Shown: positions 11,960 to 60,958, counted from the first letter of the stretch. The stretch is 64,000 nucleotides of DNA from Nitrospinaceae bacterium (GCA_021604505.1 BQJC01000001.1:768218-832217), one strand, 5' to 3'. The notes: generated by a model from the letters alone, not told the origin. Program-made: numbers and translations.

Positions 11960-12210
11960 TCAAGGAACTCCCTTAATTATAGAAATTGTTTTATAAAGCC
12001 ACTTACTATAATAAAACCATTGGATGAATCGCAACCGTTTATATTTCAAAAAAAATAAGAAGATTTTGATTCGATCCAAAAATGGCTGATTCGCCATCCA
12101 CCGTGTAAGCATTTAGCGGGATTTTGTGATGGAAATGGCAGGTTATTTGACTTGCAATTTATTCGCCATACTGATATAACGAAAAGCTTATCAAAAACAA
12201 TAGGTTATGA

Positions 12211-13263
<1,053 letters not shown>

Positions 13264-13265
13264 CT

Positions 13266-14081
13266 GTGCCCAGAAATGGAATCAAAGGCAAACGGTTAAT
13301 CACGCTTCTCTCCTTGCTCCTCCTGGTTTCGCTGGCATTAATGACCCTCAACATCAAGCGTGAAAAAGGCCCGTTCTTTTTCGAATCCCTGGTTGTCTGG
13401 GTGATTTCTCCTTTTCAGACGTTTTTTACCCAGACCGTATCTTCCATTTCAAATGTATTCGATCATTATTTTTTTGTGGTGAACACCTCCCAGGAAAATG
13501 AGATGCTTCGCGAGCAGATCGATCGACTCTCTCACGAAAAAAACAGCTTGATCGAGAAGATCAAGGAGCAGGAACGGGTCGCCAGTTTAATCCAGAATGA
13601 AGAACCCGAGGAAAGAAGGCTGGTGATCGCCAAGGTCATTGGTAAGGATGCGACCCAATGGTCTAATGTGGTTTTTATCAATAAAGGGACGGATGACGGC
13701 ATCCAGGAAAATCTCGCCGTGGTGACCAACGCCGGAGTCATCGGACACATCATTCAATCTTCGGGAGGCACATCCAAAGTGTTGCTGATCACCGACAGCC
13801 GCAGTGCGGTGGACTCTTTGTTTCAAGATTCCCGGTTTACCGGGGTCATCGTGGGAACCGGAGAAAACGTTGCGCAGATGAAGTATGTTCCAATGAATGC
13901 CGAAGTCCAGGTTGGCGACTCCGTGCTTTCCTCCGGGCTGGGGGGAACGTTTCCCAAAGGACTGAAAATTGGGATTGTGAGTCAGGTCGTCAAAAAAAAG
14001 CAAGGGTTGTTCCAGGATATCAAGGTCACGCCAAGCGCCGACTTTTCCCGCATGGAAGAAGTGATGGTTCTATTGCCTTAA
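13266..14081 (+). CDS. mreC: Rod-shape protein MreC
   Basis: Lies immediately after mreB. Has an N-terminal TM segment, a coiled coil, and beta-barrel domain motifs (G.V....GG.S.V.L..D). Confidence 0.85.
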   Translation: MPRNGIKGKRLITLLSLLLLVSLALMTLNIKREKGPFFFESLVVWVISPFQTFFTQTVSSISNVFDHYFFVVNTSQENEMLREQIDRLSHEKNSLIEKIKEQERVASLIQNEEPEERRLVIAKVIGKDATQWSNVVFINKGTDDGIQENLAVVTNAGVIGHIIQSSGGTSKVLLITDSRSAVDSLFQDSRFTGVIVGTGENVAQMKYVPMNAEVQVGDSVLSSGLGGTFPKGLKIGIVSQVVKKKQGLFQDIKVTPSADFSRMEEVMVLLP

Positions 14082-14181
14082 AAGCCCCTGGAAACAATTC
14101 AATTGGGACCACGAGCCAGCCCCCTGGAATGAGAGGCTGGCAGTTGTAACCTTAAAGGGTGTCTTTAAATCACGTTCCCCA

Positions 14182-14697
14182 ATGCCTTTTCTAATTCAGT
14201 TCATCATTTTATTGGTTCTTTTTTCTGCCCAGACCACAATTCTTGAAAATATTTCGATTGCCGGCGTCACCCCCGATCTGATTTTGATCTTCGTGGTTTT
14301 TTGCGGAATCAATATGCACGGAGGCCGGGGCGTGGGAATGGGGTTTGCCGTCGGATTCATCCAGGATTGCCTGTCCGGCGGGCTTCTCGGAGTCAACACG
14401 CTTTCCAAAAGCCTGATTGCCTTTATCTTTTCGGCCCTGAAGGATAAAATACTGGTCGAGGGACTGCTTTCCATCTTTTTGTTCATCATATTCGCTTCCA
14501 TGCTGGACGGAATGATCTTTTATCTCGTCATGGTCACCTTATTCAAGGGCGAAATTTCGGGAAGCTTTCTATTTTCATCGGTGCCGGTTTATGCCATATA
14601 CAATGGTTGTGTCGGCCCCATTCTGTTTTACATCCTGGATCTCAACAGGAGATGGATTCACCGTAGATTTTCCAACCCCTATTTACGGCAGTCATGA
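14182..14697 (+). CDS. mreD: Rod-shape protein MreD
   Basis: A small polytopic membrane protein located between mreC and mrdA. It overlaps the mrdA start by 4 nt. Confidence 0.75.
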   Translation: MPFLIQFIILLVLFSAQTTILENISIAGVTPDLILIFVVFCGINMHGGRGVGMGFAVGFIQDCLSGGLLGVNTLSKSLIAFIFSALKDKILVEGLLSIFLFIIFASMLDGMIFYLVMVTLFKGEISGSFLFSSVPVYAIYNGCVGPILFYILDLNRRWIHRRFSNPYLRQS

Positions 14698-16610
14698 GTG
14701 TATTTCGCTATAGCGCGGATGTTTCGGAAACCGTCCGGGGAAAAATCAAGATATTTGTGGTGCTGGTCATCATTGCCTTTTTATGTCTGTGGATGCGGAT
14801 TTGGTACCTGCAGATATTAAAGGGGGCGTACTTTCAGGCCAAATCCGAAAACAACCGCGTCCGGTTGACTGCCCTTCCTGCTTACCGGGGAACCATCAAG
14901 GACCGCAACGAAGAAACCCTCGTCAGCATCCGCCCGTCCTTCAATCTTTACGTCACACCGGAAGACGCGCAAAATCTACCCGAAACGCTGAAATGGTTGC
15001 AGGAAATCATTGAATTCGACAAAGATCAGGTGTTCCAACGGATCAAGGAAACGCCGCCTTTCAAACAGGTATTGATCAAAAGAGACATCGACCGCAAGCA
15101 GGTTGCCATTGTGGAAGAGAGCAAGATGCGGCTCCCAGGCATCGACATCAAAGTCGAGCCTCTTAGAAGCTACGTTTATGGCGACATGGCGACCCACGTT
15201 CTGGGGTATTTGGGAGAGATATCCAAGACCAAACTCGAAAGCCTGAACGACCCCAGCTTTGAGCAGGGAGACTTCATAGGCAAGAACGGATTGGAAATTA
15301 TTTATGAAACCATGTTGCGCGGCAAGAAGGGGTACAAGGAAGTAGAAGTCGATGTTTCCGGCCGCGAACTGCAAACCCTGAGAAAGCTTCCGCCCAAAAG
15401 CGGCAACACCCTGGTTCTGACGCTGGACCTTCGCGTGCAGAAAGTTTTGGAAGAAGTCATGACCGGAACGCCGGAGGATCCCATTTCCGGGTCCGTCGTG
15501 GCGATGAAAGTCCACACCGGCGAGATCATCGCCATCGCCAGCAAACCCTCCTTTGACTCCAACCTGTTCGCCGCGGGAATTTCCAGGGACAACTGGAAGA
15601 CGCTTGTGGAAGATGAACTCCATCCCCTGCAACACCGGACCATCAGCGGTCAATATCCCCCAGGCTCGACCTACAAAATCGTCACCGCCCTCGCGGGACT
15701 GGAAGAAAACATCGTCACACCCGAAACGACCTTTTACTGCCCAGGCCATTTTCGATTGGGACGGGGGAAGTACCGTTGCTGGAAACGCGGCGGGCACGGC
15801 ACCGTGGATCTTCATAAAGCCCTCGTGCAATCCTGCGACGTGTATTTTTATACCGTCGGCAACCGGCTGGGCATCGACAAACTGCACGAATACGCCAGAA
15901 TGCTCGGCCTGGGCGAATACACCGGAATCCAGTTGATGGGAGAAAAACGCGGGATCAACCCCAGCACAAAATGGAAACTCGCCAGCCGCAACGAACCCTG
16001 GTTGTTGGGCGAGACCATTTCCGCCTCCATCGGTCAGGGCTACAACCTGGTGACCCCCCTTCAGCAGGCGAAAATGATGGCCACCGTCGCCAATGGAGGC
16101 GTGGCGCTGAAACCCTATCTGGTGAAAAAAATCATCGACCCCGATGGCAAAACCATCAAGGAATTTCATGCCAAAGTAGAAAACAAAATCAAAGTGCATC
16201 CCGAATACCTGGAGCTCGTGAAAAAAGCTCTGTTGGGCGTGGTGAATGAGCCCAGGGGAACGGGCCGCCGGTCGCGCCTCAAAGACATCCAAGTGTCGGG
16301 AAAAACCGGAACCGCCCAGGTGGTCAAACTAAAAGTCACCGAAGACATCGAAGATGAAGATAAAATTCCCTACCACTTTCGCGACCACGCCTGGTTCGTG
16401 GCGTTCGCCCCCTATGAAAAACCGGAAATCGCGGTAGCGGTTTTAGTCGAACACGGAGGTCATGGCGGGGCCAGCGCGGCGCCCGTGGCAAAAAAAGTGA
16501 TGGAGGCCTACTTCAAACATTACCCGCCGTATGAATTGCTGGAAAAAGCCGAATCCATTGCAAATGGAGTGCAAGAGGTGGAAAAGGAAGAAAAGCCGTC
16601 CAACCCTTAA
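14694..16610 (+). CDS. mrdA: Penicillin-binding protein 2 (elongasome transpeptidase)
   Basis: Contains a PBP dimerisation domain and the transpeptidase motifs STYK, SCD and KTGTA. Confidence 0.92.
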   Translation: MSVFRYSADVSETVRGKIKIFVVLVIIAFLCLWMRIWYLQILKGAYFQAKSENNRVRLTALPAYRGTIKDRNEETLVSIRPSFNLYVTPEDAQNLPETLKWLQEIIEFDKDQVFQRIKETPPFKQVLIKRDIDRKQVAIVEESKMRLPGIDIKVEPLRSYVYGDMATHVLGYLGEISKTKLESLNDPSFEQGDFIGKNGLEIIYETMLRGKKGYKEVEVDVSGRELQTLRKLPPKSGNTLVLTLDLRVQKVLEEVMTGTPEDPISGSVVAMKVHTGEIIAIASKPSFDSNLFAAGISRDNWKTLVEDELHPLQHRTISGQYPPGSTYKIVTALAGLEENIVTPETTFYCPGHFRLGRGKYRCWKRGGHGTVDLHKALVQSCDVYFYTVGNRLGIDKLHEYARMLGLGEYTGIQLMGEKRGINPSTKWKLASRNEPWLLGETISASIGQGYNLVTPLQQAKMMATVANGGVALKPYLVKKIIDPDGKTIKEFHAKVENKIKVHPEYLELVKKALLGVVNEPRGTGRRSRLKDIQVSGKTGTAQVVKLKVTEDIEDEDKIPYHFRDHAWFVAFAPYEKPEIAVAVLVEHGGHGGASAAPVAKKVMEAYFKHYPPYELLEKAESIANGVQEVEKEEKPSNP

Positions 16611-17176
16611 CGGACGAAAATGTCCACGCTCGCCGCATTTTCGTGGCCGGATTCCAGAAGACGGTAGAGCAATCGGTAAGAGCCGCTTCTGACAAAACCC
16701 AACCGGATACTTTTATTATGCGGGAGTTTTTTCAACGAGAAAACTTCCTCGTTGCTGTCCACATGGCATAACGAAATATCCTGCAGAGAATCCTCGTGGT
16801 CATTTTTTAGAATGACGCCGGATTTGGGGGACACGAAAACAGGAGCCGGATGTTGACTAGCGTGTTTCATGTAAATGGTGGTGGACTTGAACCCGGTACC
16901 CCGGTTCAGATTGAACTTCCCCGTCCAGGGATGTTCCCAATAACTGAATTCAATAAACCGTTCATTGATGAACTGAGCAAAAACCCGGTTTTCGATCTGC
17001 CGTTCGGGGTCTTTCAAAAGTCGATTCACGTTAACACGCATTGAGGTTAATGAGGCACGTTCAATGTAAAACGAAGCGCTGGCGGCGGCAATCAGCATAA
17101 TTCCTAAAAAAAGTGTAGGAAAATTCCTAATAGGCCGGAAAAAAGTTGTGCGGGGCGGAGGGCTAACCCCCCTCAA
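16607..17176 (-). CDS. Hypothetical membrane-anchored protein (189 aa), no recognisable family
   Basis: A single N-terminal TM segment (FPTLFLGIMLIAAASASFYI) and a probable TTG start. Its stop codon overlaps the mrdA stop within the sequence TTAA. Confidence 0.5.
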   Translation of the reverse strand: MRGVSPPPRTTFFRPIRNFPTLFLGIMLIAAASASFYIERASLTSMRVNVNRLLKDPERQIENRVFAQFINERFIEFSYWEHPWTGKFNLNRGTGFKSTTIYMKHASQHPAPVFVSPKSGVILKNDHEDSLQDISLCHVDSNEEVFSLKKLPHNKSIRLGFVRSGSYRLLYRLLESGHENAASVDIFVR

Positions 17177-17178
17177 TT

Positions 17179-17292
17179 GCAGAAAAAGGGATGGAAGCGT
17201 ATTTTAACCATTGCCCGCCGTTTGAATCGGTGGAAACAGCCGAGACAAAAAACGCGCCCGTTCCTGCCGATGAGGGAAGTGAACCGCAGTAG
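17179..17292 (+). pseudogene. Displaced, diverged copy of the mrdA 3' end (encodes AEKGMEAYFNHCPPFESVETAET... followed by a stop)
   Basis: By manual alignment, 54 of 69 nt match mrdA 16488-16556. The frame is kept through to a stop at a similar distance. Confidence 0.6.
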
Positions 17293-17368
17293 TTTTCCTG
17301 TGCTTAGGCCCGAGAATGGAAAGGGTGGCGGCAAGATTTCCACGCGTTAAATAAAAGTAAATTTGTTT

Positions 17369-18460
17369 TCAGACCAATTTTAACTTTAGAAAGTCCTTAT
17401 CTTTCTTTTTAGATTCTTCTAATTGTTTAGGCAAACCAACTAAGCCAAATACAAGATTTTCAATTTCATAAACTGGAATATTTAATTGAGAAGCAATATC
17501 TTTTTTTGTGATTCGATCATTCCATAAATCTGTAAAAACCTTTTTCCATACGGTAGAAATTTCTCGCTCTATTTCATTGGGTTCTTTTGTTCGATATCCA
17601 TAACTACTTAGTTGAATACACAAGGTACGATAATTTCTTTCAGAAATGATTCCAAGTTTTTTCAACCTATATGTAAGGGCCATAACTGATACCCGCCATC
17701 TTTTCTTTGCATAAATCAATTGATCAATCGAAGTAATACAGGGAATTTTTGCAAGAATATCTGCTTCAGGCATGAGGAATGATGAAGCAAAATCATTTGC
17801 TTCAATTTCGACCTGCCTTCCTTGTTTAGGCCCCCCGTGCTTATGTAAAACTAAATGCCCTAACTCATGCGCGGCGTCAAAACGACTATGCTCCGCAGTT
17901 TTAAAAGTATTTAAAAAAACAAATGGAACATTTTTTTCCCAACAAGAAAACGCATCTACATTTTTTGTGTTTTCTGACAAGGAGAATACCCGCAGTCCTT
18001 TGGATTCTAAAAGCTGAACCATATTTCCAATTGGTTGCTCACCCAAGCACCAATGTTGTCGTAAAATTCTGGCAGCTACAGCTGGTTCACTTTCTTGCCC
18101 TAAATCCAATAGGTCAGGCTTCGGTAGCTCAAAACGTTCAGACACCCAATCCGAAAGTAAATATGCTAGTGACCCAGCTGCTAAAGCCGCATCTCTCTCT
18201 TTAGCGGTCATTGCAACCATACTTCTAAAACTGGCTGAGTCCTTATCTAACTCATCTAAATCATTTCCAAAAAAAAAGTCCTTAGGATATCTGAGGGCAG
18301 TAGCAATTTTTTCTATTGTTTCCTTTTTGGGAATATTATCTCCTCTTTCGATTCTGGTTATTTGAACCGGAGTTACTCCCACTAACTCTGCAAGAGCTTT
18401 ACTCGTTAGCCTACATCTCTTCCTTATCAGGCTGAATCTTTTATGGTTAAACATAGACAT
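17369..18460 (-). CDS. Fused XRE-family HTH / ImmA-IrrE (M78, COG2856) metallopeptidase
   Basis: The N-terminal HTH reads LTSKALAELVGVTPVQITRIERG, and the zinc motif is HELGH followed by E..NDFASSFLMP. I chose the ATG at 18460, which lies 1 nt after the upstream gene's stop. Confidence 0.85.
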   Translation of the reverse strand: MSMFNHKRFSLIRKRCRLTSKALAELVGVTPVQITRIERGDNIPKKETIEKIATALRYPKDFFFGNDLDELDKDSASFRSMVAMTAKERDAALAAGSLAYLLSDWVSERFELPKPDLLDLGQESEPAVAARILRQHWCLGEQPIGNMVQLLESKGLRVFSLSENTKNVDAFSCWEKNVPFVFLNTFKTAEHSRFDAAHELGHLVLHKHGGPKQGRQVEIEANDFASSFLMPEADILAKIPCITSIDQLIYAKKRWRVSVMALTYRLKKLGIISERNYRTLCIQLSSYGYRTKEPNEIEREISTVWKKVFTDLWNDRITKKDIASQLNIPVYEIENLVFGLVGLPKQLEESKKKDKDFLKLKLV

Positions 18461-18461
18461 C

Positions 18462-19106
18462 CTATTTTCGTGCAATATTAACTTCAAATTCCTTAAAATC
18501 ACCATCATCACCATCATCAAAATTTGACAATGAAAATTCAGGAAGATCTCCATCTCCATCTTGTAGGAGAAAAATTCTTTCTAAAAATCCAGAGAACTGA
18601 CCACAATCAACTGATTTCGGCAGGGACAACTCTGCTGAAATAATACCTTGATTTTCAGATACGCACAGATACCAAGCTGAAGTTTTATTTGCAGGCATTG
18701 CTCGATTTATTTCCTCCTCAGAAAATAAAATCCCTTGATTGTTAGAGACAGTCCGCTCAGACCCTGGACCTTTTTTTGACCTGGCTCTTGGTTCCCAATT
18801 CTTTTCGGATGCACGATCAACATTCTGAAAAATAATTTTTATTGTTGCTATAGAATTTACTATTCCCTCTACAGAATCTTTTCTATTGATTTGCCACCCT
18901 TGGGAACGAAGGATTTCCCTCAGAGACCTTGTTCCCGCAAAATATGCTAACGACCCTGGGGCATTTGCTGCATCATTATCGGTACAACTATTTCGAGCTA
19001 ATACAGCATCGTGGATTACCTTAATAAGATCGGAACGAACTAAACCCATTTTCTTCAATTTTTTACCAACTTCATCACTATCTTCTAATATCCTTGCCAG
19101 TTCCAT
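18462..19106 (-). CDS. Hypothetical protein (214 aa) with an acidic D/G-rich C-terminal tail; no family recognised
   Basis: An intact ORF with RBS GAGGTG upstream, tightly coupled to the ImmA-like gene. The sequence is AT-rich. Confidence 0.65.
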   Translation of the reverse strand: MELARILEDSDEVGKKLKKMGLVRSDLIKVIHDAVLARNSCTDNDAANAPGSLAYFAGTRSLREILRSQGWQINRKDSVEGIVNSIATIKIIFQNVDRASEKNWEPRARSKKGPGSERTVSNNQGILFSEEEINRAMPANKTSAWYLCVSENQGIISAELSLPKSVDCGQFSGFLERIFLLQDGDGDLPEFSLSNFDDGDDGDFKEFEVNIARK

Positions 19107-19135
19107 AAGACACCTCGTACGTTAATATTCGTGTG

Positions 19136-19164
19136 AATTTTTACATAAAAAATTAACATGGTCA
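19136..19164 (-). promoter_or_regulatory. Candidate promoter of the two-gene cassette
   Basis: On the minus strand: TTGACC (19164-19159), a 17-nt spacer ending in TGT, then AAAAAT (19141-19136). Confidence 0.3.
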
Positions 19165-19225
19165 AGAGATTCATGGTAATTTTTTCGTCATATCGAAACA
19201 GGTGGGAGGGATATAGGTTCTTCCA

Positions 19226-19348
19226 TCAAGCAGAAATCATCAGATCTTTATCGTGTAAACGCTTGATGCGGTCGCGGAGTTCGGCGGCTTTTTCAAACTC
19301 CAGATTTTTGGCCGCCGCGAACATTTGTTTCTCCAGCCGCGCAATCAA
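19226..19348 (-). pseudogene. Displaced duplicate of the uvrB 3' end (last 40 codons plus stop)
   Basis: Encodes [40 protein letters not shown] followed by a stop. It differs from uvrB 20203-20325 at 14 of 123 nt, mostly at synonymous sites. Confidence 0.85.
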
Positions 19349-19424
19349 AGAAAATCATCCACAAATAATCCAATGTGAGGATTGATGATTTTCGTTTTCG
19401 TCTTTTCTTTGAAATTGGCGGGTC

Positions 19425-19754
19425 TCAAGCCAATACAACGTCTTGGGGAGATTCCCCTTTTCTTCGACGGGTGACCTGAACCCTTACCTTTCGATCCAGC
19501 TTATTCAAAAATGCAAACAACCGTTCCTGGGAGAACAGTGTGTAGCGACCGTTCATCAGGTTCGATACTTCCGGTTGCTTGATCTCCAGGAGTTTGCCGA
19601 TCTCTCGTTGCTTGAGTTTTTTCTTTTCAAGGATCATCCGCACGGAATGACCGAGTTTGGCCCGTATTAAAAGTTCTTCGGAATCATCCAGTCCCAAATC
19701 TTCAAACACATTTCCAGAACTTTCTTCAAAGGCTATTTTTTCATTTTTCTTCAT
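19425..19754 (-). CDS. higA: XRE-family HTH antitoxin (HigA-like)
   Basis: Contains the HTH LKQREIGKLLEIKQPEVSNLMNG. It overlaps the upstream toxin gene by 4 nt. Confidence 0.85.
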   Translation of the reverse strand: MKKNEKIAFEESSGNVFEDLGLDDSEELLIRAKLGHSVRMILEKKKLKQREIGKLLEIKQPEVSNLMNGRYTLFSQERLFAFLNKLDRKVRVQVTRRRKGESPQDVVLA

Positions 19755-20113
19755 GATTGTTTTTCCTTTTCTATTGCCACGGCTTCCTTATAACGCCGAG
19801 CGATCATTTCGATATCCAGCTTGGCTGTTTTTCGGCCCTTGGGAGCTTTCTTCTGAAATGCATGCAGAACGTAAACCCGTTTGCCAATCTGCACCGCGTA
19901 AACTGTGCGGTAGGTGTTGGTTTCGAAGCGGGTGACGATTTCCAGGACTCCGCTGGCCACGCCCTTAAACGGCTTGGCTTGCGGAGGTTTTGTCCCTTTT
20001 TGAACGTCAAAAAGCGCGGCTCCAATGTCCTGCCGCGCTTCCCGTGGAAACGATTGAACCTGTTTTCGCGCATCTCCCACCCATACCACGGGTTTCAGAT
20101 TGTCTTCATCCAT
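19751..20113 (-). CDS. higB: RelE/ParE-superfamily toxin, Gp49/HigB-like (DUF891)
   Basis: Matches the pattern KPVVWVG...FP...R..IG..L..VQ.G..P...KP...V..GV.EI......YR.VY......VYVLHAFQKK. Confidence 0.8.
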   Translation of the reverse strand: MDEDNLKPVVWVGDARKQVQSFPREARQDIGAALFDVQKGTKPPQAKPFKGVASGVLEIVTRFETNTYRTVYAVQIGKRVYVLHAFQKKAPKGRKTAKLDIEMIARRYKEAVAIEKEKQS

Positions 20114-20123
20114 ACTGCCTTTT

Positions 20124-20152
20124 ATGATATAAGTATTTACTTATATTTTCAA
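20124..20152 (-). promoter_or_regulatory. higBA promoter with an embedded perfect palindromic operator
   Basis: On the minus strand: TTGAAA (20152-20147), a 17-nt spacer, then TATCAT (20129-20124). The region 20127-20146 is ATATAAGTA-aa-TACTTATAT. Confidence 0.5.
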
Positions 20153-20202
20153 GAAATATATTTTAACTTTCCTGGCGGCTTTGCATGAGGAAAGGTTTTA
20201 AC

Positions 20203-22194
20203 TCAAGCCGAGATCATCAGATCTTTGTCACGCAGGCGTTTGATCCGGTCGCGGAGTTCGGCGGCTTTTTCAAACTCCAGGTTCTTGGCCGCCGCGAACA
20301 TTTGTTTTTCCAGCCGCGAAATCAATTGATGGACGTTGCCGGTGTTGTTGTATTCCTCTTCCTCTTCGGCCACCAGCGGCACGACGGCAAATTTCTCTGC
20401 CTGGCTCAGGGATTCGCCCACGGATTTTACGATCGACGCGGGGGTGATGTTGTGTTTCTCGTTGTATTCCAGTTGAATCGTTCGCCGTCGGTTCATCTCG
20501 GTGATCGCCGCCTGCATGGAGCGGGTCACCGTGTCGGCGTACATGATGACTTTGCCCTCGACATGACGGGCCGCGCGGCCCGACGTTTGAATCAGCGAGG
20601 TCGTGGAACGCAAAAATCCCTCCTTGTCCGCATCGAGAATGGCGACGAGGGTCACTTCCGGAATGTCCAACCCTTCGCGCAACAGGTTGATGCCGATCAA
20701 GGCGTCGAATTCCCCGAGACGCAGTTCGCGGATGATCTGGCTCCGCTCCAGGGTCACGATGTCGGAATGCAGGTATTTCACCTTCAGCCCCAGTTCGGAA
20801 TAATGTTCCGTCAAGTCCTCCGAAAACCGTTTGGTGAGCGTGGTGATCAGAATGCGTTCCTCTTTTTCTGCCCGTTTTAATATCTCATGGTGCAGGTCGT
20901 CCACCTGGCCTTTGACCGGTTTTATCTCGACTTCGGGATCGACCAGCCCGGTCGGGCGCACGATCAATTCCACCACCTTGCCGTCTGACTTTTCGATTTC
21001 ATAAGGCCCCGGCGTCGCGGACACATAGATCACCTGGTTGACGTGCTCCTGGAATTCATGAAATTGCAGGGGCCGGTTGTCGAACGCCGAAGGCAGGCGG
21101 AATCCGTAGCGCACGAGGGTTTCCTTGCGCGAGCGGTCGCCCTTGTACATGCCCTGCAATTGCGGCAGGGTGACGTGGCTCTCGTCGATGACGAACAGCG
21201 AGTCGTCGGGAAAATAGTCCAGAAGCGTGGGCGGCGGTTCGCCTGCCGGGCGGTCCATCAGGTGGCGCGAGTAATTCTCGATGCCCTGGCAATAGCCCAC
21301 CTCCTTGATCATTTCCAGATCGAACATCGTCCGCTGATCGATGCGTTGCGCCTCGACCAGCAGGTTCTGGCTTTCAAAATAGTGCACGCGCTCTATGAGT
21401 TCCTCGCGGATGGCGGCAATGGCCTTGTTCAGCAGTTCCTTGGGGGTCGCGTAATGACTGGCCGGGTAAATGGCGATGCGGTCCAGATCGCGGATGCCTT
21501 TGCCCGTTAATGGGTCGAAAGCCTGAATGCGGTCGATCTGGTCGCCAAAAAACTCGATGCGCACGGCTTCGTTGCGTTCGTAGACCGGCAGCACTTCCAC
21601 CACATCGCCGCGCACCCGGAACGTGCCGCGCTGGAAGTCGATATCGTTGCGCTTGTACTGGATGTCCACCAGCTTTTTCAACACCTGTTCCCGGTCGATG
21701 GTCATGCCCCGTTCGGCAAACACCAGCATGCCGTGATAGGCTTCCGGCGATCCCAGTCCGTAGATGCAGGAGACGCTGGCGACGATCACCACATCCCGCC
21801 GTTCAAACAGCGAATGCGTGGCGGCGTGGCGCATTTTGTCGATTTCATCGTTGATGGAGGCGTCTTTTTCGATGTACGTGTCGGTATTGGCGAGATACGC
21901 TTCCGGTTGATAGTAATCGTAATAACTGACAAAATAGCCCACCGCGTTTTCCGGGAAAAAGGCTTTGAATTCGCTGTACAATTGCGCCGCCAGGGTTTTG
22001 TTATGCGCCAGGACCAGCGTCGGTTTTTGAATCTCCTGAATGACGTTGGCGATGGTGTAGGTTTTCCCGGACCCGGTCACCCCCAGAAGCGTTTGCCGGG
22101 GGGTCGCGGAATCGCAGTTTTTCACCAGTTGTTCGATGGCTTTGGGTTGATCGCCGGCAGGCTGGAACTCGGCGTGCAATTTGAACGGGGTCAT
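20203..22194 (-). CDS. uvrB: Excinuclease ABC subunit B
   Basis: Contains GVTGSGKT, helicase motifs, and a C-terminal UVR domain ([13 protein letters not shown]). Length 663 aa. Confidence 0.97.
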
Positions 22195-22593
22195 GGCAAA
22201 TTTCGGGTTGTTAAATGAAGGTTTTAAAATAACATAATTTATGTGGTAAATTAAGAAAACTGGAGCTTTGCGAATCAGCAGAATCCGCTGTTTCTCTCCT
22301 CAACTCCTTCGCGGAAGGCGAGCTTGCTCACGACGCGAAACGTTTTTCGAGGCCAGCGCACCGCTGGACGAAATAATCATATTCAATGGGTTTTGTTAAG
22401 AATAGAATTCTTCCCTGACCCCTGTGATTTAACATTAGCTCTCATGCCCGGAACGGGTACTTTAAAAAGGGGGAATCGAATGCTCCCCCCTTCAAGAAGG
22501 GAGCCGGGGGGATTTGTACCCTCCCAGCACCATCGGGGATGACCGTCTTGATGCAAAGGTCGCCTCGGGGTCAAAGAGAAAGAAAGGCAATTT

Positions 22594-23784
22594 GTGGATT
22601 CCAACGAGGAAATAATCAAGACCTTCCAGGCCGGTGATTCCACCATCACGCTGGTGGGCACCGCACACGTATCGCAAAAGAGCGTCGAACTGGTGGAAAG
22701 CGAGATCCAGAGCGGAAAATACGATTGCGTGGCGGTGGAGCTTTGTCAGCCCCGGTTTGAGAACCTGATCAACCGGTCGGGATGGAAAAATCAGGACATC
22801 TACCAGATTTTCCGGCAAAAGCGGGCGACTTTACTGCTCATCAACCTGGCGTTGTCCGCCTATCAAAAACGGTTGGCCGAAAAGGTCGGGGTGGAAGCCG
22901 GTCAGGAAATGGTGCGCGCGATTGAATTGTCCAAAGAGAAAGACCTCCGCCTGGAGGTCATCGACCGCAACATCACCACCACGCTTCAACGCCTGGTGAC
23001 CGGCGTTTCCTTCTGGCAGAAATTGAAGATCTTTTCAGGATTGGTGGCCGGTATATTCGTGGGCGAGGAAGTGAGCGAAAAGCAGATTGAAGAACTTAAA
23101 AAAGGCGACATGCTGCAAACCGTGGTCGAGGAATTTGGCGAGACCCTGCCGCAATTCAAGCAAGTCCTCATTGATGAACGCGACGAATACATGACGGGCA
23201 ATTTGCTTCGGCTCACGCAATCGCCGGACGCGCCAAAAAACATCCTTGCCGTTGTGGGGGCCGGGCACCTGATCGGCATGATGCCGGCGTTCTCCAACCC
23301 GCCCGATGAAAAGCGCTTGCAGGAGCTGGATGAAAAACCGCCTCCCAGCCGGGTCGGTTACTATATAGGCTGGACCATTTGCATCCTGATCCTCAGCATG
23401 TTTTACGTCGGTTACAGCCGTTCGCCGGAATTGGGCCTGCAACTGGTGATCACCTGGGTGGCGTTGAACGGCGGGTTGAGCGCTCTCGGAGCGGCGATTG
23501 GACTGGCGCATCCCCTGTCGATATTGACGGCTTTTGTGGCCGCGCCGCTCACCTCGCTGAACCCGACCATCGGCGCCGGAATGGTAGTCGGTCTGGTGGA
23601 GTCTTATCTGCGTAAACCCAAAGTCAGCGATTTCGAGGCCCTGCGTGAGGACATCGGCACCATGAAGATGTGGTGGAAGAACCGGGTGGTGCGGGTTCTG
23701 ATGATCTTTTTCTTTGCCAATATAGGCTCGGCAGTGGGGACTTACGTTGCCGGAGCCTCGATCGTCACACAGATTTTCGGGTGA
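22594..23784 (+). CDS. TraB/GumN-family protein
   Basis: The N-terminus reads ITLVGTAHVSQKSV, and there is a C-terminal polytopic membrane region. The start codon is GTG. Confidence 0.85.
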   Translation: MDSNEEIIKTFQAGDSTITLVGTAHVSQKSVELVESEIQSGKYDCVAVELCQPRFENLINRSGWKNQDIYQIFRQKRATLLLINLALSAYQKRLAEKVGVEAGQEMVRAIELSKEKDLRLEVIDRNITTTLQRLVTGVSFWQKLKIFSGLVAGIFVGEEVSEKQIEELKKGDMLQTVVEEFGETLPQFKQVLIDERDEYMTGNLLRLTQSPDAPKNILAVVGAGHLIGMMPAFSNPPDEKRLQELDEKPPPSRVGYYIGWTICILILSMFYVGYSRSPELGLQLVITWVALNGGLSALGAAIGLAHPLSILTAFVAAPLTSLNPTIGAGMVVGLVESYLRKPKVSDFEALREDIGTMKMWWKNRVVRVLMIFFFANIGSAVGTYVAGASIVTQIFG

Positions 23785-23790
23785 CGGGCC

Positions 23791-24732
23791 ATGGCCGATT
23801 CCCGTCCGCGGATCGCCGTCACCCCGCCGGCGTTTTGTAAATCGGCAACCCTTCGCGACGCACTCTGCAAATCGTTTCCGCAATCCATATTTAATGAAAA
23901 AAACCGCTACCTGACAGAACCCGAGCTGATCACTTTTTTACAGGATGCCGAGGGCGCCATCATCGGCCGCGACCCCGTCCATGAAAAGATGATAAAGGCT
24001 TTGCCCCGCCTGAAAATCATCGCCAAATACGGCGTCGGTCTCGACAACATCGACCAGGAGGCCCTGTGTCGTCACAATGTGAAATTCGGTTGGACTGGCG
24101 GGACCAACAGCCTTTCGGTGGCGGAGTTGACCTTAGGGTTCATGATCGGATTGTGTCACAACACGTTTTCCAGAGGATTCGCCTTAAAACAGAACGATTG
24201 GCAAAAAGACGGTGGCACTCAATTGACCGGGAAGACGGTGGGCATCATCGGCTGCGGCCACGCGGGGTCGGAAGTCGTCCGCCTGTTGGCCCCGTTCCAA
24301 TGCCGGATTCTAGTGCGCGACATCGTCGATAAAACCGGGTTTTGCCGGAACCATGCGGCTCAGGTGGCGAGTCTCGATGAAGTCATCGAACAGTCGGACA
24401 TTCTCACCCTGCACGTGCCGTTAACGGATGCGACCCGCAACCTGGTCGCCGAAAAAACCCTGGCACAAATGAAATCAACAGCTTTCTTAATCAATACCAG
24501 CCGCGGAGAGGTTGTCGATCAAAATGCGTTAAAGGCAAGCTTAAAAAATGGCGGTATTGCCGGCGCGGCGTTGGACGTGTTTTCTAAGGAACCTCCAGAA
24601 GATGCCGAATTTCTGGCCCTTCCCAACCTGATAGCAACCCCGCATATCGGTGGAAACACCGTTGAAGCGGTTGAGGCGATGGGGCGGGCCGCAATCGCCC
24701 ACCTCGAAGATTTCTTTAGAATGGAGAAATAA
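23791..24732 (+). CDS. D-isomer-specific 2-hydroxyacid dehydrogenase (phosphoglycerate dehydrogenase-like)
   Basis: Carries the NAD motif GIIGCGHAGSEV and the catalytic pattern R...E...H (TPHIGG). Confidence 0.85.
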   Translation: MADSRPRIAVTPPAFCKSATLRDALCKSFPQSIFNEKNRYLTEPELITFLQDAEGAIIGRDPVHEKMIKALPRLKIIAKYGVGLDNIDQEALCRHNVKFGWTGGTNSLSVAELTLGFMIGLCHNTFSRGFALKQNDWQKDGGTQLTGKTVGIIGCGHAGSEVVRLLAPFQCRILVRDIVDKTGFCRNHAAQVASLDEVIEQSDILTLHVPLTDATRNLVAEKTLAQMKSTAFLINTSRGEVVDQNALKASLKNGGIAGAALDVFSKEPPEDAEFLALPNLIATPHIGGNTVEAVEAMGRAAIAHLEDFFRMEK

Positions 24733-25005
24733 CTGATCCGCAAAACCCCTGAATACGCTCTTTTTCCCTTCAAAATCCCGCCTGCCGCTTGCCTCGCCCA
24801 TTTCTGAAATGGCTTGCAAATAAAACCTTTATTGATGGTAGTCCGAATATTTCTTTGGGCTAACTAATTAATTTTGTTTACTTTATGCATGTTTCCATGT
24901 AATTCTATATAAATTATTATATTGCTTCACCAGGATTAGTATTTAGCAATCCCTTGAGCGATATTTGATTAAAGTCACACCTTCTTCTTCAAGGAGACCC
25001 AATAA

Positions 25006-27120
25006 ATGGAACATGTGATGGGGAAAAGCGGATCTCAAACCCCTTTTATTTTTCGGATTTTTAAGAATGGGGGCAACGGTAAAACCAATCCCAGGGAACT
25101 TCAGAGCAAGATAGATGCGATCGATAAATCCCAGGCCGTGATCGAGTTTAATATGGACGGCACGATCATCACCGCCAACGAAAATTTTTTAAACGTGGTG
25201 GGTTATTCTCTGGAAGAGATCAAGGGCCAGCATCACCGCATGTTCTGTGAACCCTCCTACGCGAACAGCCCAGCCTACAGGGCGTTCTGGGAAAAGCTGA
25301 ACCGCGGAGAATACGATACCGGAGAATACAGGAGGTTGGGCAAAGGCGGTGTGGAAGCCTGGATTCAAGCATCTTATAATCCCATCATGGACTCTAAAGG
25401 CAGACCCTATAAGGTGGTGAAGTTCGCCAGCAATGTGACCCAGCAAAAACTGATGAACGCCGAGTATCAGGGAAAGGTGGACGCCATTGGGAAAGCCCAG
25501 GCCGTGATCGAGTTTAATATGGACGGCACGATCATCACCGCCAACGAAAACTTTTTAAACGTGGTGGGTTATTCTCTGGAAGAGATCAAGGGCCAGCATC
25601 ACCGCATGTTCTGTGAACCCTCCTACGCCAACAGCCAGGAATACAAGGCGTTCTGGGAGAAACTGAACCGTGGAGAATACGATACGGGGGAATACAGGAG
25701 GTTGGGCAAGGGCGGTGCGGAAGCCTGGATTCAGGCGACTTACAATCCGATTATGGACATGAACGGCAAACCCTTTAAGGTGGTGAAATTTGCCAGCAAT
25801 GTGACCCAGCAAAAACTGATGAACGCCGAGTATCAGGGAAAGGTGGACGCCATTGGGAAAGCCCAGGCCGTGATCGAGTTTAATATGGACGGCACGATCA
25901 TCACCGCCAACGAGAATTTTTTAAATGTGGTGGGTTATTCTCTGGAAGAGATCAAGGGCCAGCATCACCGCATGTTTTGTGAGCCGGACTACGCCAACAG
26001 CCAGGAATACAAGGCGTTCTGGGAGAAACTGAACCGTGGAGAATACGATACGGGGGAATACAGGAGGTTGGGCAAGGGCGGTGCGGAAGCCTGGATTCAG
26101 GCGTCCTATAACCCGATTATAGACATGAACGGCAAACCCTTTAAAGTGGTCAAATTTGCGACGAACATCAGTGAAAAAGTCCAAAAAGTGGCTCAAATCC
26201 TGGAAGTTGTCAATGCCGCCAGCGAAGGGGATTTGACCCGGGAGTTAAAAGTAGCCGGCACCGATGATGCGGGTCAGATTGGAGAAGGGTTGTCTAAACT
26301 CCTCGCCAATTTGAAAAAAATGATTGTCAGCTTTGCAACTCAATCCGATTCTCTGGCATCCTCTTCGGAAGAGTTGACAGCGGTCAGTCAGCAAATGGCG
26401 GGGAACGCGGAGGAGACAGCGGCGCAATCGGGTGTGGTGTCCGCCGCTTCCGAGCAGGTCAGTAAGAACGTGCAGACCGTGGCCACCGGCGCCGAGGAAA
26501 TGAGTGCCAGCATTAAGGAGATTGCGCAGAATGCCAGTGAAGCGTCGCGCGTAGCCAGTGAAGCGGTAAAAGTGGCGGAAACAACGAATGCAACCATCAG
26601 CAAACTGGGCGAGAGTTCGGCGGAGATCGGGCAGGTGGTCAAGGTCATCACATCCATCGCGGAGCAGACCAATCTTCTGGCGTTGAACGCCACGATTGAA
26701 GCGGCGAGAGCGGGCGAAGCCGGTAAAGGATTTGCGGTGGTGGCCAACGAGGTGAAGGACCTGGCCAATCAGACGGCCAAGGCGACGGAGGAGATCAGCG
26801 GCAAGATCAGCGCCATTCAGTCCGACACGCAGAACTCGGTCACCGCGATTGCAGAGATATCCGAGGTGATCAACAAGATCAACGATATTTCCAACACCAT
26901 AGCCAGCGCCGTTGAAGAGCAGACAGCGACCACAGCTGAAATCGGCCGCAATGTGTCTGAGGCCGCAAGAGGCACATCGGAAATCGCGCAAAATATCACG
27001 GGGGTGGCGCAAGCGGCGGAAAGCACGACCCAGGGCGCAACCGATACGCAATCAGCTTCCCGCGAGCTTTCGAAAATGGCATCGGAACTGCAAAATTTGA
27101 TCAGTCAGTTTAAAGTTTAA
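25006..27120 (+). CDS. Soluble methyl-accepting chemotaxis protein with three tandem PAS domains
   Basis: No TM segment is present. There are three PAS modules, then a HAMP-like linker, then the MCP signalling domain ([28 protein letters not shown]). Confidence 0.9.
25111..26170 (+). repeat. Intragenic tandem repeat, about 2.9 copies of 366 bp (one PAS module per copy)
   Basis: The string GCCGTGATCGAGTTTAATATGGACGGC recurs at 25134, 25500 and 25866. Units 2 and 3 are about 94% identical by manual count. Confidence 0.9.
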
Positions 27121-60778: not shown

Positions 60779-60948
60779 TGACTGCGGATCACGACCTGCG
60801 GGGCAAAGGCATGGATGAGGAAGGCAAGAGCGAATCCGAAAAACAAACCAAACGAAAAGTACTTAATATTTATCTGCTGATCTTCGGTGTCCTTTTGGCG
60901 GGTGTGTCCTTTGCATGGCACATTTTATCCCTGCTATTTAAGGAATGA
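60778..60948 (+). CDS. Possible small single-TM protein (56 aa)
   Basis: Its ATG overlaps the FMN-binding gene stop (TAATG). It has a charged N-terminus followed by one hydrophobic helix. It is not listed separately in the ORF track because it sits inside a longer spurious frame. Confidence 0.4.
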   Translation: MTADHDLRGKGMDEEGKSESEKQTKRKVLNIYLLIFGVLLAGVSFAWHILSLLFKE

Positions 60949-60958
60949 CCTCACCTTC

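What the first reader, a model, noticed from the sequence alone, without database searches (positions are those of the whole stretch)
16607..20202. Integrase-less insertion hot spot between convergent mrdA and uvrB carrying three independent small cargo modules
Reading the relics as the ancestral gene ends gives an original layout of mrdA pointing right, an AT-rich cassette, and uvrB pointing left. Two further insertions then occurred, one at each flank: ORF189 at mrdA and higBA at uvrB. The three modules differ in base composition, and each has its own apparent promoter. I recognise no integrase, transposase, recombinase, tRNA or long inverted repeats anywhere in the 3.6 kb. This suggests either a cargo-exchange mechanism supplied in trans or repeated homologous-recombination imports from relatives with different cargo. 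The region behaves like a miniature variable defence/TA islet anchored on conserved gene ends.
Basis: inference. Interest (0 to 1): 0.62.

Follow-up and report, generated by a model that had tools for sequence, protein, structure and literature searches.

The report
Variable defence slot with gene-tail scars
Between two conserved housekeeping genes of an uncultured marine Nitrospinaceae bacterium lies a small slot whose contents, here a Rosmer anti-phage system and a HigBA toxin-antitoxin pair, differ in every related genome and were most likely swapped in by ordinary recombination that left duplicated gene ends as scars, so it is a clean example of a known phenomenon, not a new kind of mobile element.

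Summary
The sequence features are real. A 123-nt copy of the uvrB 3' end (89% identical) and a 114-nt diverged copy of the mrdA 3' end bracket an AT-rich two-gene cassette. The 3.6 kb holds no recombinase, tRNA or long inverted repeat.

The cassette is a Rosmer (RmrT/RmrA) anti-phage system. The uvrB-proximal pair is HigB/HigA. ORF189 is not cargo: a roughly 140-aa homologue abuts mrdA in 8 of 9 related Nitrospinaceae loci, and the ninth keeps a remnant.

Only Rosmer is compositionally foreign. ORF189 and higBA lie within background.

The interval is hypervariable: nine relatives carry nine different contents and none has an integrase. One relative (L167) has the same Rosmer cassette abutting a functional uvrB. 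Synonymous divergence is 0.25-0.28 for Rosmer against 0.8-2.1 for 11 core genes, so the cassette was exchanged recently. L167 also keeps a piece of the same mrdA relic, so that relic travels with the cassette.

Best explanation: cargo turnover by recombination with related DNA, anchored in a conserved flank and closed by an illegitimate joint (homology-facilitated illegitimate recombination, "3'-end displacement"). This is a new member of a known kind (a core-gene-flanked defence hotspot). Interest is modest.

The parts
14694..16610 (+). mrdA (penicillin-binding protein 2), the left conserved anchor. Its last 123 nt (16488-16610) are the resident copy of the duplicated tail.
   Evidence: Pfam PBP_dimer and Transpeptidase. 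100% identical to a GenBank Nitrospinaceae MAG protein.
16607..17176 (-). ORF189, a homologue of a clade-conserved ORF of about 140 aa that converges on and overlaps the mrdA stop codon. The true start is probably ATG 17038 or GTG 17029 (143 or 140 aa). It is resident, not cargo.
   Evidence: tblastn gives 42-48% aa identity to the ORF at the same position in L161, L163, L164, L165, L166 and L168, and a 140-aa ORF is called at the same position in L172-L174. Start codons align. No Pfam or PADLOC family.
17039..17165 (-). Upstream region of the ORF140 homologue, conserved among relatives. It contains the palindrome TTCCTA-N10-TAGGAA. The conserved block ends about 13 nt before the mrdA relic.
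   Evidence: Alignment A1.
17179..17292 (+). Relic of a diverged mrdA 3' end: 38 codons in an intact frame ending in a stop (AEKGMEAYFNHCPPFESVETAETKNAPVPADEGSEPQ*). It is the left scar of the Rosmer segment.
   Evidence: Three private changes at otherwise invariant sites, all at second codon positions. The distal part is also present next to Rosmer in L167.
17293..17368 (.). Spacer between the mrdA relic and the rmrA stop. Clear homology with L167 resumes at 17353.
17369..18460 (-). rmrA, the Rosmer antitoxin-like gene: XRE-type HTH plus an ImmA/IrrE M78 metallopeptidase domain (HELGH motif at residue 198).
   Evidence: PADLOC RmrA 5e-157 and Pfam HTH_3 + Peptidase_M78. Motif. 92% aa identity to the L167 copy.
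18462..19106 (-). rmrT, the Rosmer toxin-like gene (214 aa). Its stop lies 1 nt before the rmrA start.
   Evidence: PADLOC RmrT 2.4e-45. 86% aa identity to the L167 copy.
19107..19225 (-). Spacer holding the rmrT promoter-like site (19165-19137, TTGACC-17-AAAAAT). Next to the relic stop it carries a uvrB-downstream flank of the type seen in L163 and L167.
19226..19348 (-). Relic of a uvrB 3' end (40 codons plus stop, UVR domain, frame intact). 14 differences from the resident tail cause only 2 amino-acid changes.
19349..19424 (-). 76-nt segment of unknown origin between the uvrB relic and the higA stop. It has an AU-rich hairpin followed by a U-tract (possibly the higBA terminator; the fold is not better than shuffles). 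The junction 19348/19349 is an illegitimate joint.
   Evidence: Junction reproduced in L171.
19425..19754 (-). higA-like antitoxin (HTH_37).
   Evidence: Pfam 3.7e-21.
19751..20113 (-). higB-like toxin (Gp49/RelE-ParE superfamily), upstream of the antitoxin and overlapping it by 4 nt.
   Evidence: Pfam 2.4e-20. Overlap ATGA.
20114..20175 (-). higBA promoter-operator region (TTGAAA-17-TATCAT at 20152-20124; palindrome TATAAGTATTTACTTATA at 20128-20145). The unit 19427-20175 (promoter plus two genes) recurs at another locus in another Nitrospinota genome.
   Evidence: 84.6% nt identity to L169 6864-7609.
20176..20202 (-). Native uvrB downstream flank (GTTAAAA...TGCAAA), shared with L161, L164 and L168 and cut short by the higBA unit.
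20203..22194 (-). uvrB, the right conserved anchor. Its last 123 nt (20203-20325) are the resident copy of the duplicated tail.
   Evidence: Pfam UvrB_inter, UvrB, UVR and Helicase_C.

Best explanation
The space between the mrdA/ORF140 block and uvrB is a core-gene-flanked variable slot in this Nitrospinaceae clade. I propose that cargo is replaced by recombination with DNA from related lineages, not by a dedicated mobile element. In this genome the cargo is a Rosmer RmrT/RmrA anti-phage module and a HigB/HigA toxin-antitoxin module.

Incoming DNA is anchored by RecA-type homologous pairing in a conserved flank (uvrB or mrdA) and closed on the other side by an illegitimate joint. This is homology-facilitated illegitimate recombination, the same logic as '3'-end displacement' in Rhs, CDI and T6SS loci. 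Such events leave truncated gene tails from the donor or the recipient as scars.

Inferred history:
1. A genome existed with mrdA' - Rosmer - uvrB'.
2. The Rosmer segment, carrying a piece of the mrdA' tail on its left, spread to other lineages, including this one and L167.
3. In this genome the uvrB' tail next to Rosmer was separated from uvrB. Either a higBA unit arrived with a fresh uvrB tail, or the segment was inserted with both tails attached. The order cannot be decided.

Shown: the anatomy, the variability of the slot, the recent exchange of Rosmer, and the absence of recombinase genes. Inferred: the recombination mechanism and the order of events.
For: 1. Slot variability. The mrdA-> <-uvrB pairing is conserved across Nitrospinaceae, with gaps of 46-860 bp in distant members. 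Nine closer relatives (mrdA 78-86% aa identity) carry nine different contents:
- nothing;
- unknown ORFs;
- PNPOx plus an aldo-keto reductase;
- Rosmer;
- an AriA-like ATPase;
- an ABC transporter.
Sources.

2. Recent exchange. W 17353-19337 aligns with L167 at 89.5% nt identity, against 78-83% for the flanking genes. dS is 0.25 for RmrA and 0.28 for RmrT, against 0.82-2.06 for 11 core genes.

3. The tails are diverged functional alleles, not in-situ duplicates. The uvrB relic has 14 nt differences, an intact frame and only 2 amino-acid changes. Each tail copy carries a native-looking downstream flank of a different allelic type found in relatives.

4. The mrdA relic travels with Rosmer. L167 12701-12738 matches W 17246-17283 (alignment score 31 against shuffles at 16.1 +/- 2.3; 0 of 500 reach it). 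In L167 the uvrB side of the cassette is seamless, which is the one-sided-homology pattern.

5. No recombinase. None is present in any of the 10 versions of the slot, and none was recognised in the 64-kb window. Viral contigs carry no uvrB-tail motif and no close RmrA or HigB.

6. Other illegitimate scars in the same slot. L167 keeps an ORF140 3' remnant. The higBA unit cuts a conserved element downstream of uvrB.

7. The cargo units are bare 'promoter plus two genes' blocks with no terminal repeats, found in different flanks.

8. The same model has been proposed for orphan 3' fragments and orphan immunity genes in V. cholerae T6SS, Rhs and CDI loci (PMC5361080).
Against: - No parental sequences are available, so microhomology at the two illegitimate joints (17178/17179 and 19348/19349) cannot be checked.
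- No recombination breakpoint is detectable inside mrdA or uvrB at the available resolution.
- The higBA unit is flanked by a direct repeat with a 35-nt perfect core, which is also what a site-specific or Campbell-type integration would produce.
- Both relics begin at a codon boundary, exactly 41 codons before the stop of the resident copy. This is an unexplained coincidence.
- Natural competence or another DNA-uptake route is not established for this organism.
- Only nine relatives could be examined, all from metagenomes.
Confidence: 0.6

Rival explanations
1. Campbell-type integration without a dedicated recombinase. A 977-bp donor fragment (uvrB tail, 27 nt, higB, higA, 76 nt) circularised and then integrated by a single homologous crossover in the uvrB tail. 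This duplicated the tail on both sides of higBA.
For: The structure is exactly tail - higBA - tail, with start-to-start spacing of 977 bp. The 35-nt identical core (19269-19303 = 20246-20280) is long enough for RecA-dependent exchange by general knowledge of minimal homology lengths. Short-read contigs break in this core.
Against: It cannot explain the mrdA relic, whose longest identical run with the resident tail is 8 nt and which is also found next to Rosmer in L167. It needs a circularisation step for which there is no evidence. It differs from the best explanation only in the topology of one event.
Confidence: 0.12
2. Cassettes mobilised in trans. The conserved 3' ends of uvrB and mrdA act as attachment sites for a tyrosine or serine recombinase encoded elsewhere. 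Recombinase-less cargo units carrying a gene-tail attP are inserted one after another, as with CIME elements, satellite islands or integron cassettes.
For: Direct repeats of the target gene's 3' end flank higBA, with a perfect 35-nt core. The functional gene is restored by the proximal copy. The relic boundaries are codon-precise at 41 codons. The higBA unit occurs at a second locus in another genome.
Against: - None of the 10 slot variants contains a recombinase, and none was recognised in the 64 kb.
- Eight relatives with different cargo have no tail relics at all, which is not expected from serial att-mediated insertion.
- The higBA copy in L169 is not flanked by any uvrB-like sequence.
- The mrdA repeat lacks an identical core.
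- No viral contig carries the uvrB-tail motif.
Confidence: 0.08
3. Decayed integrative islands. Complete islands with integrases once inserted into the uvrB and mrdA 3' ends and later lost everything except small cargo and the att scars.
For: Gene-tail duplication is the classic footprint of integration into a gene's 3' end (general knowledge). Relative L163 has a degenerate tRNA-Lys-like sequence in the slot, which could be debris from an island.
Against: It requires precise loss of the integrase while both scars are kept, twice over. ORF189, the supposed cargo at mrdA, is a conserved resident gene. No integrase remnant is seen in any variant. The mrdA relic belongs with the Rosmer cassette in two lineages.
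Confidence: 0.06
4. Assembly chimera. Two co-existing strains, one with Rosmer next to uvrB and one with higBA next to uvrB, were merged through the shared uvrB tail.
For: The source is a MAG. The repeat has a 35-nt identical core at which k-mer assemblies branch.
Against: The junction 19348/19349 joins position -123 of a uvrB tail to unrelated sequence. A second assembler recovers it at 100% identity (L171). A chimera would switch inside shared sequence and would not create such a joint. The mrdA-relic junction is likewise recovered (L170). Caveat: both assemblies probably use the same reads.
Confidence: 0.04

Closest known systems
Core-gene-flanked defence hotspots (for example cDHS1 and cDHS2 of Pseudomonas aeruginosa, PMC10250203)
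   Same: A variable region bounded by the same conserved core genes in all genomes. [quoted passage not shown] The paper proposes transfer by homologous recombination through the conserved flanks.
   Different: This slot is far smaller (1-4 kb against a median of 26 kb). It lies in an uncultured Nitrospinaceae clade and between convergent gene ends. Here the exchange leaves visible scars (truncated gene tails), whereas flank-mediated replacement is expected to leave none. Only 3 of 10 variants carry recognisable defence genes.
3'-end (C-terminal) displacement arrays of Rhs, CDI and Vibrio cholerae T6SS effector-immunity loci, attributed to homology-facilitated illegitimate recombination (PMC5361080; Rhs work cited there as PMC2935791)
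   Same: Incoming DNA brings a new 3' end plus cargo. It is anchored by homology in the conserved upstream part and pushes the old 3' fragment and old cargo downstream as orphans. No integrase is involved.
   Different: In those loci the displaced 3' ends encode polymorphic toxin domains and the process diversifies the gene itself. Here the displaced ends are tails of housekeeping genes (uvrB, mrdA) and are mere by-products. The direction of the event is not resolved here.
Integrative islands and cis-mobilisable elements that insert into the 3' end of a gene and duplicate it (general knowledge)
   Same: A direct repeat of the target gene's 3' end flanks the inserted DNA, and the gene stays intact.
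   Different: No integrase is present in the element, in the slot of any relative, or in the window. Relics are absent from relatives with other cargo.
RosmerTA anti-phage systems (RmrT toxin plus RmrA HTH/ImmA-protease antitoxin; PMC10440598 and references therein)
   Same: A two-gene toxin-first operon. RmrA has an HTH plus an M78 peptidase domain with HExxH. Matches to PADLOC RmrA and RmrT models are strong.
   Different: Anti-phage activity is untested. The nearest homologues outside this Nitrospinaceae pair are 67% identical or less.
HigB/HigA type II toxin-antitoxin modules
   Same: The toxin (Gp49/RelE-ParE superfamily) is encoded upstream of an HTH antitoxin with a 4-nt overlap. A palindromic operator overlaps the promoter.
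   Different: Function is untested. It is assigned from Pfam domains and gene order only.

Membership tests
Core-gene-flanked variable/defence hotspot | The same conserved flanking genes in all related genomes | tested here: met
   mreBCD-mrdA and uvrB-traB flank the interval in L081-L087 and in L161, L163, L164, L165, L167, L168 and L172.
Core-gene-flanked variable/defence hotspot | Contents differ between related genomes | tested here: met
   Nine relatives carry nine different contents. Interval length ranges from 967 to 3824 bp.
Core-gene-flanked variable/defence hotspot | Enrichment for defence systems | tested here: inconclusive
   Rosmer in W and L167 and an AriA-like ATPase in L172. 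The other variants carry unknown ORFs or metabolic genes. The sample is too small for an enrichment test.
Homology-facilitated illegitimate recombination / 3'-end displacement | An orphan 3' fragment of the conserved gene lies beyond a new 3' end plus cargo | tested here: met
   uvrB tail relic 19226-19348 lies beyond higBA. mrdA tail relic 17179-17292 lies beyond ORF189.
Homology-facilitated illegitimate recombination / 3'-end displacement | Duplicated ends derive from different alleles (import), not from local duplication | tested here: met
   11% nt divergence, mostly synonymous. The downstream flanks are of two allelic types seen in relatives.
Homology-facilitated illegitimate recombination / 3'-end displacement | One homologous junction and one illegitimate junction with microhomology | not testable with these tools
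   Parental sequences are unknown. L167 shows the expected one-sided pattern: seamless at uvrB, scar on the left.
Integrase-mediated island at a gene's 3' end | Integrase or recombinase gene within or next to the element | tested here: not met
   No such family was found in any ORF of the interval, in any relative's slot, or among window ORFs checked by Pfam or by eye.
Integrase-mediated island at a gene's 3' end | Direct repeats (attL/attR) with an identical core flanking the insert | tested here: inconclusive
   Met for higBA (35-nt core). Not met for the mrdA repeat (longest identical run 8 nt).
Integron cassette array | intI gene and attC recombination sites bounding each cassette | tested here: not met
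   No integrase. The higBA unit ends at its stop codon with no imperfect-palindrome site shared between W and L169. The folds of the flanks are not better than shuffles.
RosmerTA defence system | Adjacent RmrT and RmrA (HTH plus M78 peptidase with HExxH) | tested here: met
   PADLOC RmrA 5e-157 and RmrT 2.4e-45. Pfam HTH_3 + Peptidase_M78. HELGH motif at residue 198. 1-nt gap between the genes.
RosmerTA defence system | Protects against phage; toxin neutralised by antitoxin | not testable with these tools
   Requires experiments.
HigBA type II TA | RelE/ParE-superfamily toxin upstream of an HTH antitoxin in one operon | tested here: met
   Gp49 2.4e-20 and HTH_37 3.7e-21. Toxin first, with a 4-nt overlap.

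The most novel reading that the evidence does not exclude
The last 40 or so codons of housekeeping genes such as uvrB and mrdA serve as attachment sites for a recombinase encoded elsewhere in Nitrospinaceae genomes. Bare 'promoter plus two genes' defence/TA units carrying a copy of the gene tail would then be inserted and stacked there. This would be an integron-like or satellite-like cassette system that targets protein-coding 3' ends. The 35-nt perfect core and the codon-precise boundaries at -41 codons would be its footprints.
Probability: 0.07. Interest if true: 0.7.

Novelty: new member of a known kind. Interest (0 to 1): 0.33.

Why it matters
It gives a compact, well-resolved example of how small defence and toxin-antitoxin modules move between related genomes of an uncultured, ecologically important marine nitrite oxidiser without any mobile-element machinery. 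The truncated gene tails act as natural markers of where imported DNA ended. One relic travels with the Rosmer cassette in two lineages.

For annotation practice, duplicated 3' gene ends around small cassettes should not automatically be read as att sites. A gene that looks like cargo in one genome (ORF189) can be a conserved resident.

It does not reveal a new mechanism.

Tried and rejected
1. Both large-collection scans were saturated by generic motifs and returned no close relatives. These were genome contigs with uvrB and metagenome contigs with mrdA. They did establish that mrdA-uvrB adjacency is Nitrospinaceae-specific and mostly 'empty' in distant members.
2. An exact look-up of the window's UvrB found nothing.
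3. Sliding-window identity along uvrB and mrdA against 5-6 relatives showed no recombination breakpoint, so the direction of the events could not be set.
4. Counting private substitutions to date the relics gave small numbers. The mrdA relic has 3 of 31, all at second codon positions. The uvrB relic has 3 of 81. This is suggestive only.
5. The junction-flanking segments (76 nt, 60 nt, 80 nt) have no homologue in any fetched locus.
6. No Rfam family matched in 12000-26000 or in the L163 slot.
7. Viral contigs had no uvrB-tail motif and no close RmrA or HigB.
8. The 76-nt segment folded as a terminator is not better than shuffles.
9. In-situ tandem duplication followed by decay is rejected. The differences are mostly synonymous and the flanks are of different allelic types.
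10. The idea that the equal 123-nt tail lengths reflect a measuring mechanism is rejected as weak. The relic's own mrdA tail is 114 nt, not 123.
11. A literature search for uvrB as an attB site found nothing.

Full report
**What is there**

The window comes from a GenBank MAG annotated as a Nitrospinaceae bacterium. Its PBP2 is 100% identical to a protein on a 1.6-Mb contig, and the five interval proteins are GJL77723-GJL77727, locus tags NPINA01_07120-07160.

The gene order is as follows:

| Feature | Coordinates | Strand |
|---|---|---|
| mreB, mreC, mreD, mrdA | 12241-16610 | + |
| ORF189 | 16607-17176 | - |
| mrdA 3'-end copy | 17179-17292 | + |
| 363-aa gene (rmrA) | 17369-18460 | - |
| 214-aa gene (rmrT) | 18462-19106 | - |
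| uvrB 3'-end copy | 19226-19348 | - |
| higA | 19425-19754 | - |
| higB | 19751-20113 | - |
| uvrB | 20203-22194 | - |

- **uvrB repeat.** It is 123 nt long and 109/123 identical (E 1.6e-42), with a 35-nt perfect core at 19269-19303 = 20246-20280.
- **mrdA repeat.** It is 65 nt at 82% identity (E 9e-14) and continues as an intact 38-codon reading frame to a stop.
- **What is absent.** No ORF in the interval matches a recombinase or transposase family. The window has no tRNA and no long inverted repeat. No Rfam family matches.
- **Assembly check.** Contigs assembled by another pipeline from run DRR328264 reproduce both odd junctions at 100% identity and break inside the 35-nt core. The joints are therefore not products of one assembler, although the reads are probably the same.

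**What the modules are**

The AT-rich pair is a Rosmer system. PADLOC gives RmrA 5e-157 and RmrT 2.4e-45. RmrA has an XRE-type HTH and an M78 ImmA/IrrE peptidase domain with HELGH. RosmerTA systems are toxin-antitoxin-like anti-phage modules with an ImmA-protease antitoxin (PMC10440598).

The uvrB-proximal pair is HigB/HigA-like: Gp49 toxin first, then an HTH_37 antitoxin, with a 4-nt overlap. A palindromic operator lies in a sigma-70-like promoter.

ORF189 has no family. Only the Rosmer cassette is compositionally foreign:

| Module | GC | Position relative to background (0.489 +/- 0.034) |
|---|---|---|
| Rosmer cassette | 0.372 | 0.5th percentile; tetranucleotide distance in the top 0.35% |
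| ORF189 module | 0.477 | within background |
| higBA | 0.458 | within background |

**Comparison with relatives**

The two large scans were swamped by generic motifs. They still showed that mrdA-> <-uvrB is a Nitrospinaceae arrangement, with only 46-860 bp between the genes in members at about 62% PBP2 identity.

Closer relatives (PBP2 78-86% identical) were reached through a protein search and exact look-ups. Their slot contents:

| Locus | Contents between mrdA and uvrB |
|---|---|
| L165/L166 | ORF140 only |
| L163 | ORF140 + a 156-aa ORF |
| L161 | ORF140 + four unknown ORFs (GC 0.39) |
| L164 | ORF140 + PNPOx + aldo-keto reductase + DUF4124 |
| L168 | ORF138 + PNPOx + two unknown ORFs |
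| L172 | ORF140 + a 494-aa AAA_15/21 ATPase matching PARIS AriA models (2e-24) |
| L173 | ORF140 + ABC transporter + reductase |
| L167 | PNPOx + RmrA + RmrT directly abutting uvrB |

None of these slots contains a recombinase family, and none contains mrdA or uvrB tail relics.

**ORF189 is not cargo**

A 138-140-aa ORF is called in the same position in L161, L163-L166, L168 and L172-L174, converging on mrdA. tblastn gives 42-48% identity to ORF189 for L161, L163-L166 and L168, and the L172/L173 slots align with this block at the nucleotide level. Its stop overlaps the mrdA stop in the window, L163, L165, L166, L168 and L172-L174.

L167 keeps the last roughly 10 codons of it (..SVDIVVS*) between mrdA and PNPOx. 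The aligned start codons suggest the real protein is 140-143 aa. The conserved block ends about 13 nt before the mrdA relic.

**Rosmer was exchanged between lineages, and the mrdA relic travels with it**

W 17353-19337 aligns continuously with L167 12780-14771 at 89.5% identity. This covers rmrA, rmrT, the promoter spacer and the uvrB tail. The flanking mrdA and uvrB are 78-83% identical.

Synonymous divergence is 0.25 (RmrA) and 0.28 (RmrT), against 0.82-2.06 for 11 core genes. The cassette therefore shares an ancestor several-fold more recently than the genomes do. Outside this pair the nearest RmrA is 67% identical.

The 141 nt to the left of rmrA in L167 are not shared with the PNPOx-bearing relatives. 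They contain a significant match to the distal part of the window's mrdA relic: 29/38 identical, score 31 against 16.1 +/- 2.3 in shuffles, with 0 of 500 shuffles reaching it.

So the relic is a passenger on the Rosmer segment. It records a source genome in which Rosmer lay directly between mrdA and uvrB. It is not this genome's own displaced gene end.

In L167 the cassette is seamless on the uvrB side and scarred on the other. That is the pattern of an import anchored by homology on one side only.

**The uvrB side**

The relic and the resident tail differ at 14 positions. The frame is intact and only two residues change (S/A, which is polymorphic among relatives, and R/H).

Each copy is followed by a native-looking uvrB downstream flank of a different type. 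The relic has the L163/L167 type. The resident copy has the GTTAAAA..TGCAAA type of L161, L164 and L168. They are therefore two diverged functional alleles brought together recently, not a local duplication.

The relic tail is closest to the resident tail and to L161 (88%), and less close to L167 (81%).

The higBA unit (19427-20175: promoter, operator and two genes, ending at the higA stop codon) is 84.6% identical to a unit in another Nitrospinota genome. There it lies between HtrA-like protease genes and a Shedu-type SduA_C gene, with no uvrB-like flank and no terminal repeats. In the window it cuts into a conserved element downstream of uvrB.

**Mechanism**

Every reading needs at least two illegitimate joints (17178/17179 and 19348/19349). 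The most economical account is recombination with DNA from related lineages. It is anchored by homology in a conserved flank and closed by an illegitimate joint on the other side.

This is homology-facilitated illegitimate recombination. It is the mechanism proposed for orphan 3' fragments and orphan immunity genes in Rhs, CDI and V. cholerae T6SS loci (PMC5361080). It is also compatible with the flank-mediated transfer suggested for core defence hotspots in P. aeruginosa (PMC10250203).

I could not decide between two orders of events:
- Rosmer arrived first with a seamless uvrB junction, as in L167, and higBA plus a new tail then displaced the old tail.
- The segment mrdA'tail-Rosmer-uvrB'tail was inserted in one step beside a pre-existing higBA.

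No breakpoint is visible inside the flanking genes, and the relic ages are not resolvable.

For higBA alone, a Campbell-type single crossover of a circularised 977-bp fragment through the 35-nt core would give the same structure.

A recombinase acting in trans on the gene tails is not excluded by a 64-kb window, but it has no positive support:
- no recombinase in ten slot variants;
- none recognised among the window's ORFs (27 checked by Pfam, the rest read by eye);
- no relics in relatives with other cargo;
- no identical core in the mrdA repeat;
- no uvrB-tail motif in viral contigs.

**Verdict**

The count of three independent cargo modules, the role of ORF189, the origin of the mrdA relic and the compositional claim need correction.

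The locus is a new member of a known kind: a core-gene-flanked variable/defence slot with displacement-type scars. It is a neat teaching example in an uncultured marine nitrite oxidiser, but not surprising to a specialist.

Noticed in passing
window 25006-27120 (repeats 25101-26132): A chemoreceptor-type protein (MCP signalling domain at the C-terminus) contains three tandem 366-nt repeats, 86-89% identical, each encoding a PAS-like sensor module. They look like recent internal duplications.
   Followed up: partly
L163 12453-12522: A 70-nt tRNA-Lys(CUU)-like sequence lies in the variable slot of a relative. It has matching acceptor strands, a T-loop GGTTCGATCC, a CCA end and a shortened D-arm. 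Neither ARAGORN nor Rfam calls it. It may be a tRNA pseudogene or debris from a tRNA-targeting island.
   Followed up: partly
L161 15698-15733, L164 15368-15403, L168 15197-15232; window 20176-20202: A conserved element of about 36 nt (TGCAAATTTAAGGACGGCTTCCGGCCAAAAGCGGAC) lies 18-50 nt downstream of the uvrB stop in three relatives with different cargo. In the window the higBA unit truncates it after TGCAAA. Its function is unknown and it has no Rfam match.
   Followed up: no
L167 11957-11990 and 12025-12654: L167 keeps only the last roughly 10 codons of the ORF140 homologue (overlapping the mrdA stop). The rest is replaced by a PNPOx gene. The PNPOx module is about 89% identical between L167 and each of L164 and L168, and ends exactly at its stop codon. 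It appears to be another separately exchanged unit.
   Followed up: partly
window 16488/17179 and 20325/19348: Both relics begin at a codon boundary exactly 41 codons (123 nt) before the end of the resident gene copy. The mrdA relic's own tail is only 38 codons, so I treat this as coincidence, but it is unexplained.
   Followed up: partly
window 17100-17135 and homologous positions in L161, L163, L165, L168: A conserved palindrome (TTCCTA-N10-TAGGAA, then TTCCTAATAGG) lies upstream of the ORF140 homologues. It is possibly an operator or a terminator.
   Followed up: no
window 16607-17176: The ORF is probably over-called both here (189 aa) and in GenBank (163 aa). The relatives' start codon aligns with ATG at 17038 or GTG at 17029, giving 143 or 140 aa. 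The protein evolves fast (42-48% identity where PBP2 is 79-86%).
   Followed up: partly
L169 6923-8411: In another Nitrospinota genome the same higBA unit sits beside a gene with a Shedu SduA_C domain, which suggests a defence neighbourhood at an unrelated locus.
   Followed up: no
L172 5575-7059: A lone 494-aa AAA_15/AAA_21 ATPase matching PARIS AriA/AriAB models (2e-24) occupies the slot in one relative. No AriB-like partner was called.
   Followed up: no
window 60887-61804: A protein combining an ATP-cone, an Mrr_cat restriction-endonuclease fold and an AF1548-like C-terminal domain. This is an unusual regulatory-nuclease architecture.
   Followed up: no
window 22304-22356 and L169 3500-3553: A 54-nt intergenic match (83%) links the uvrB-traB divergent promoter region to an unrelated intergenic region of another Nitrospinota genome. 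It may be a shared regulatory motif.
   Followed up: no
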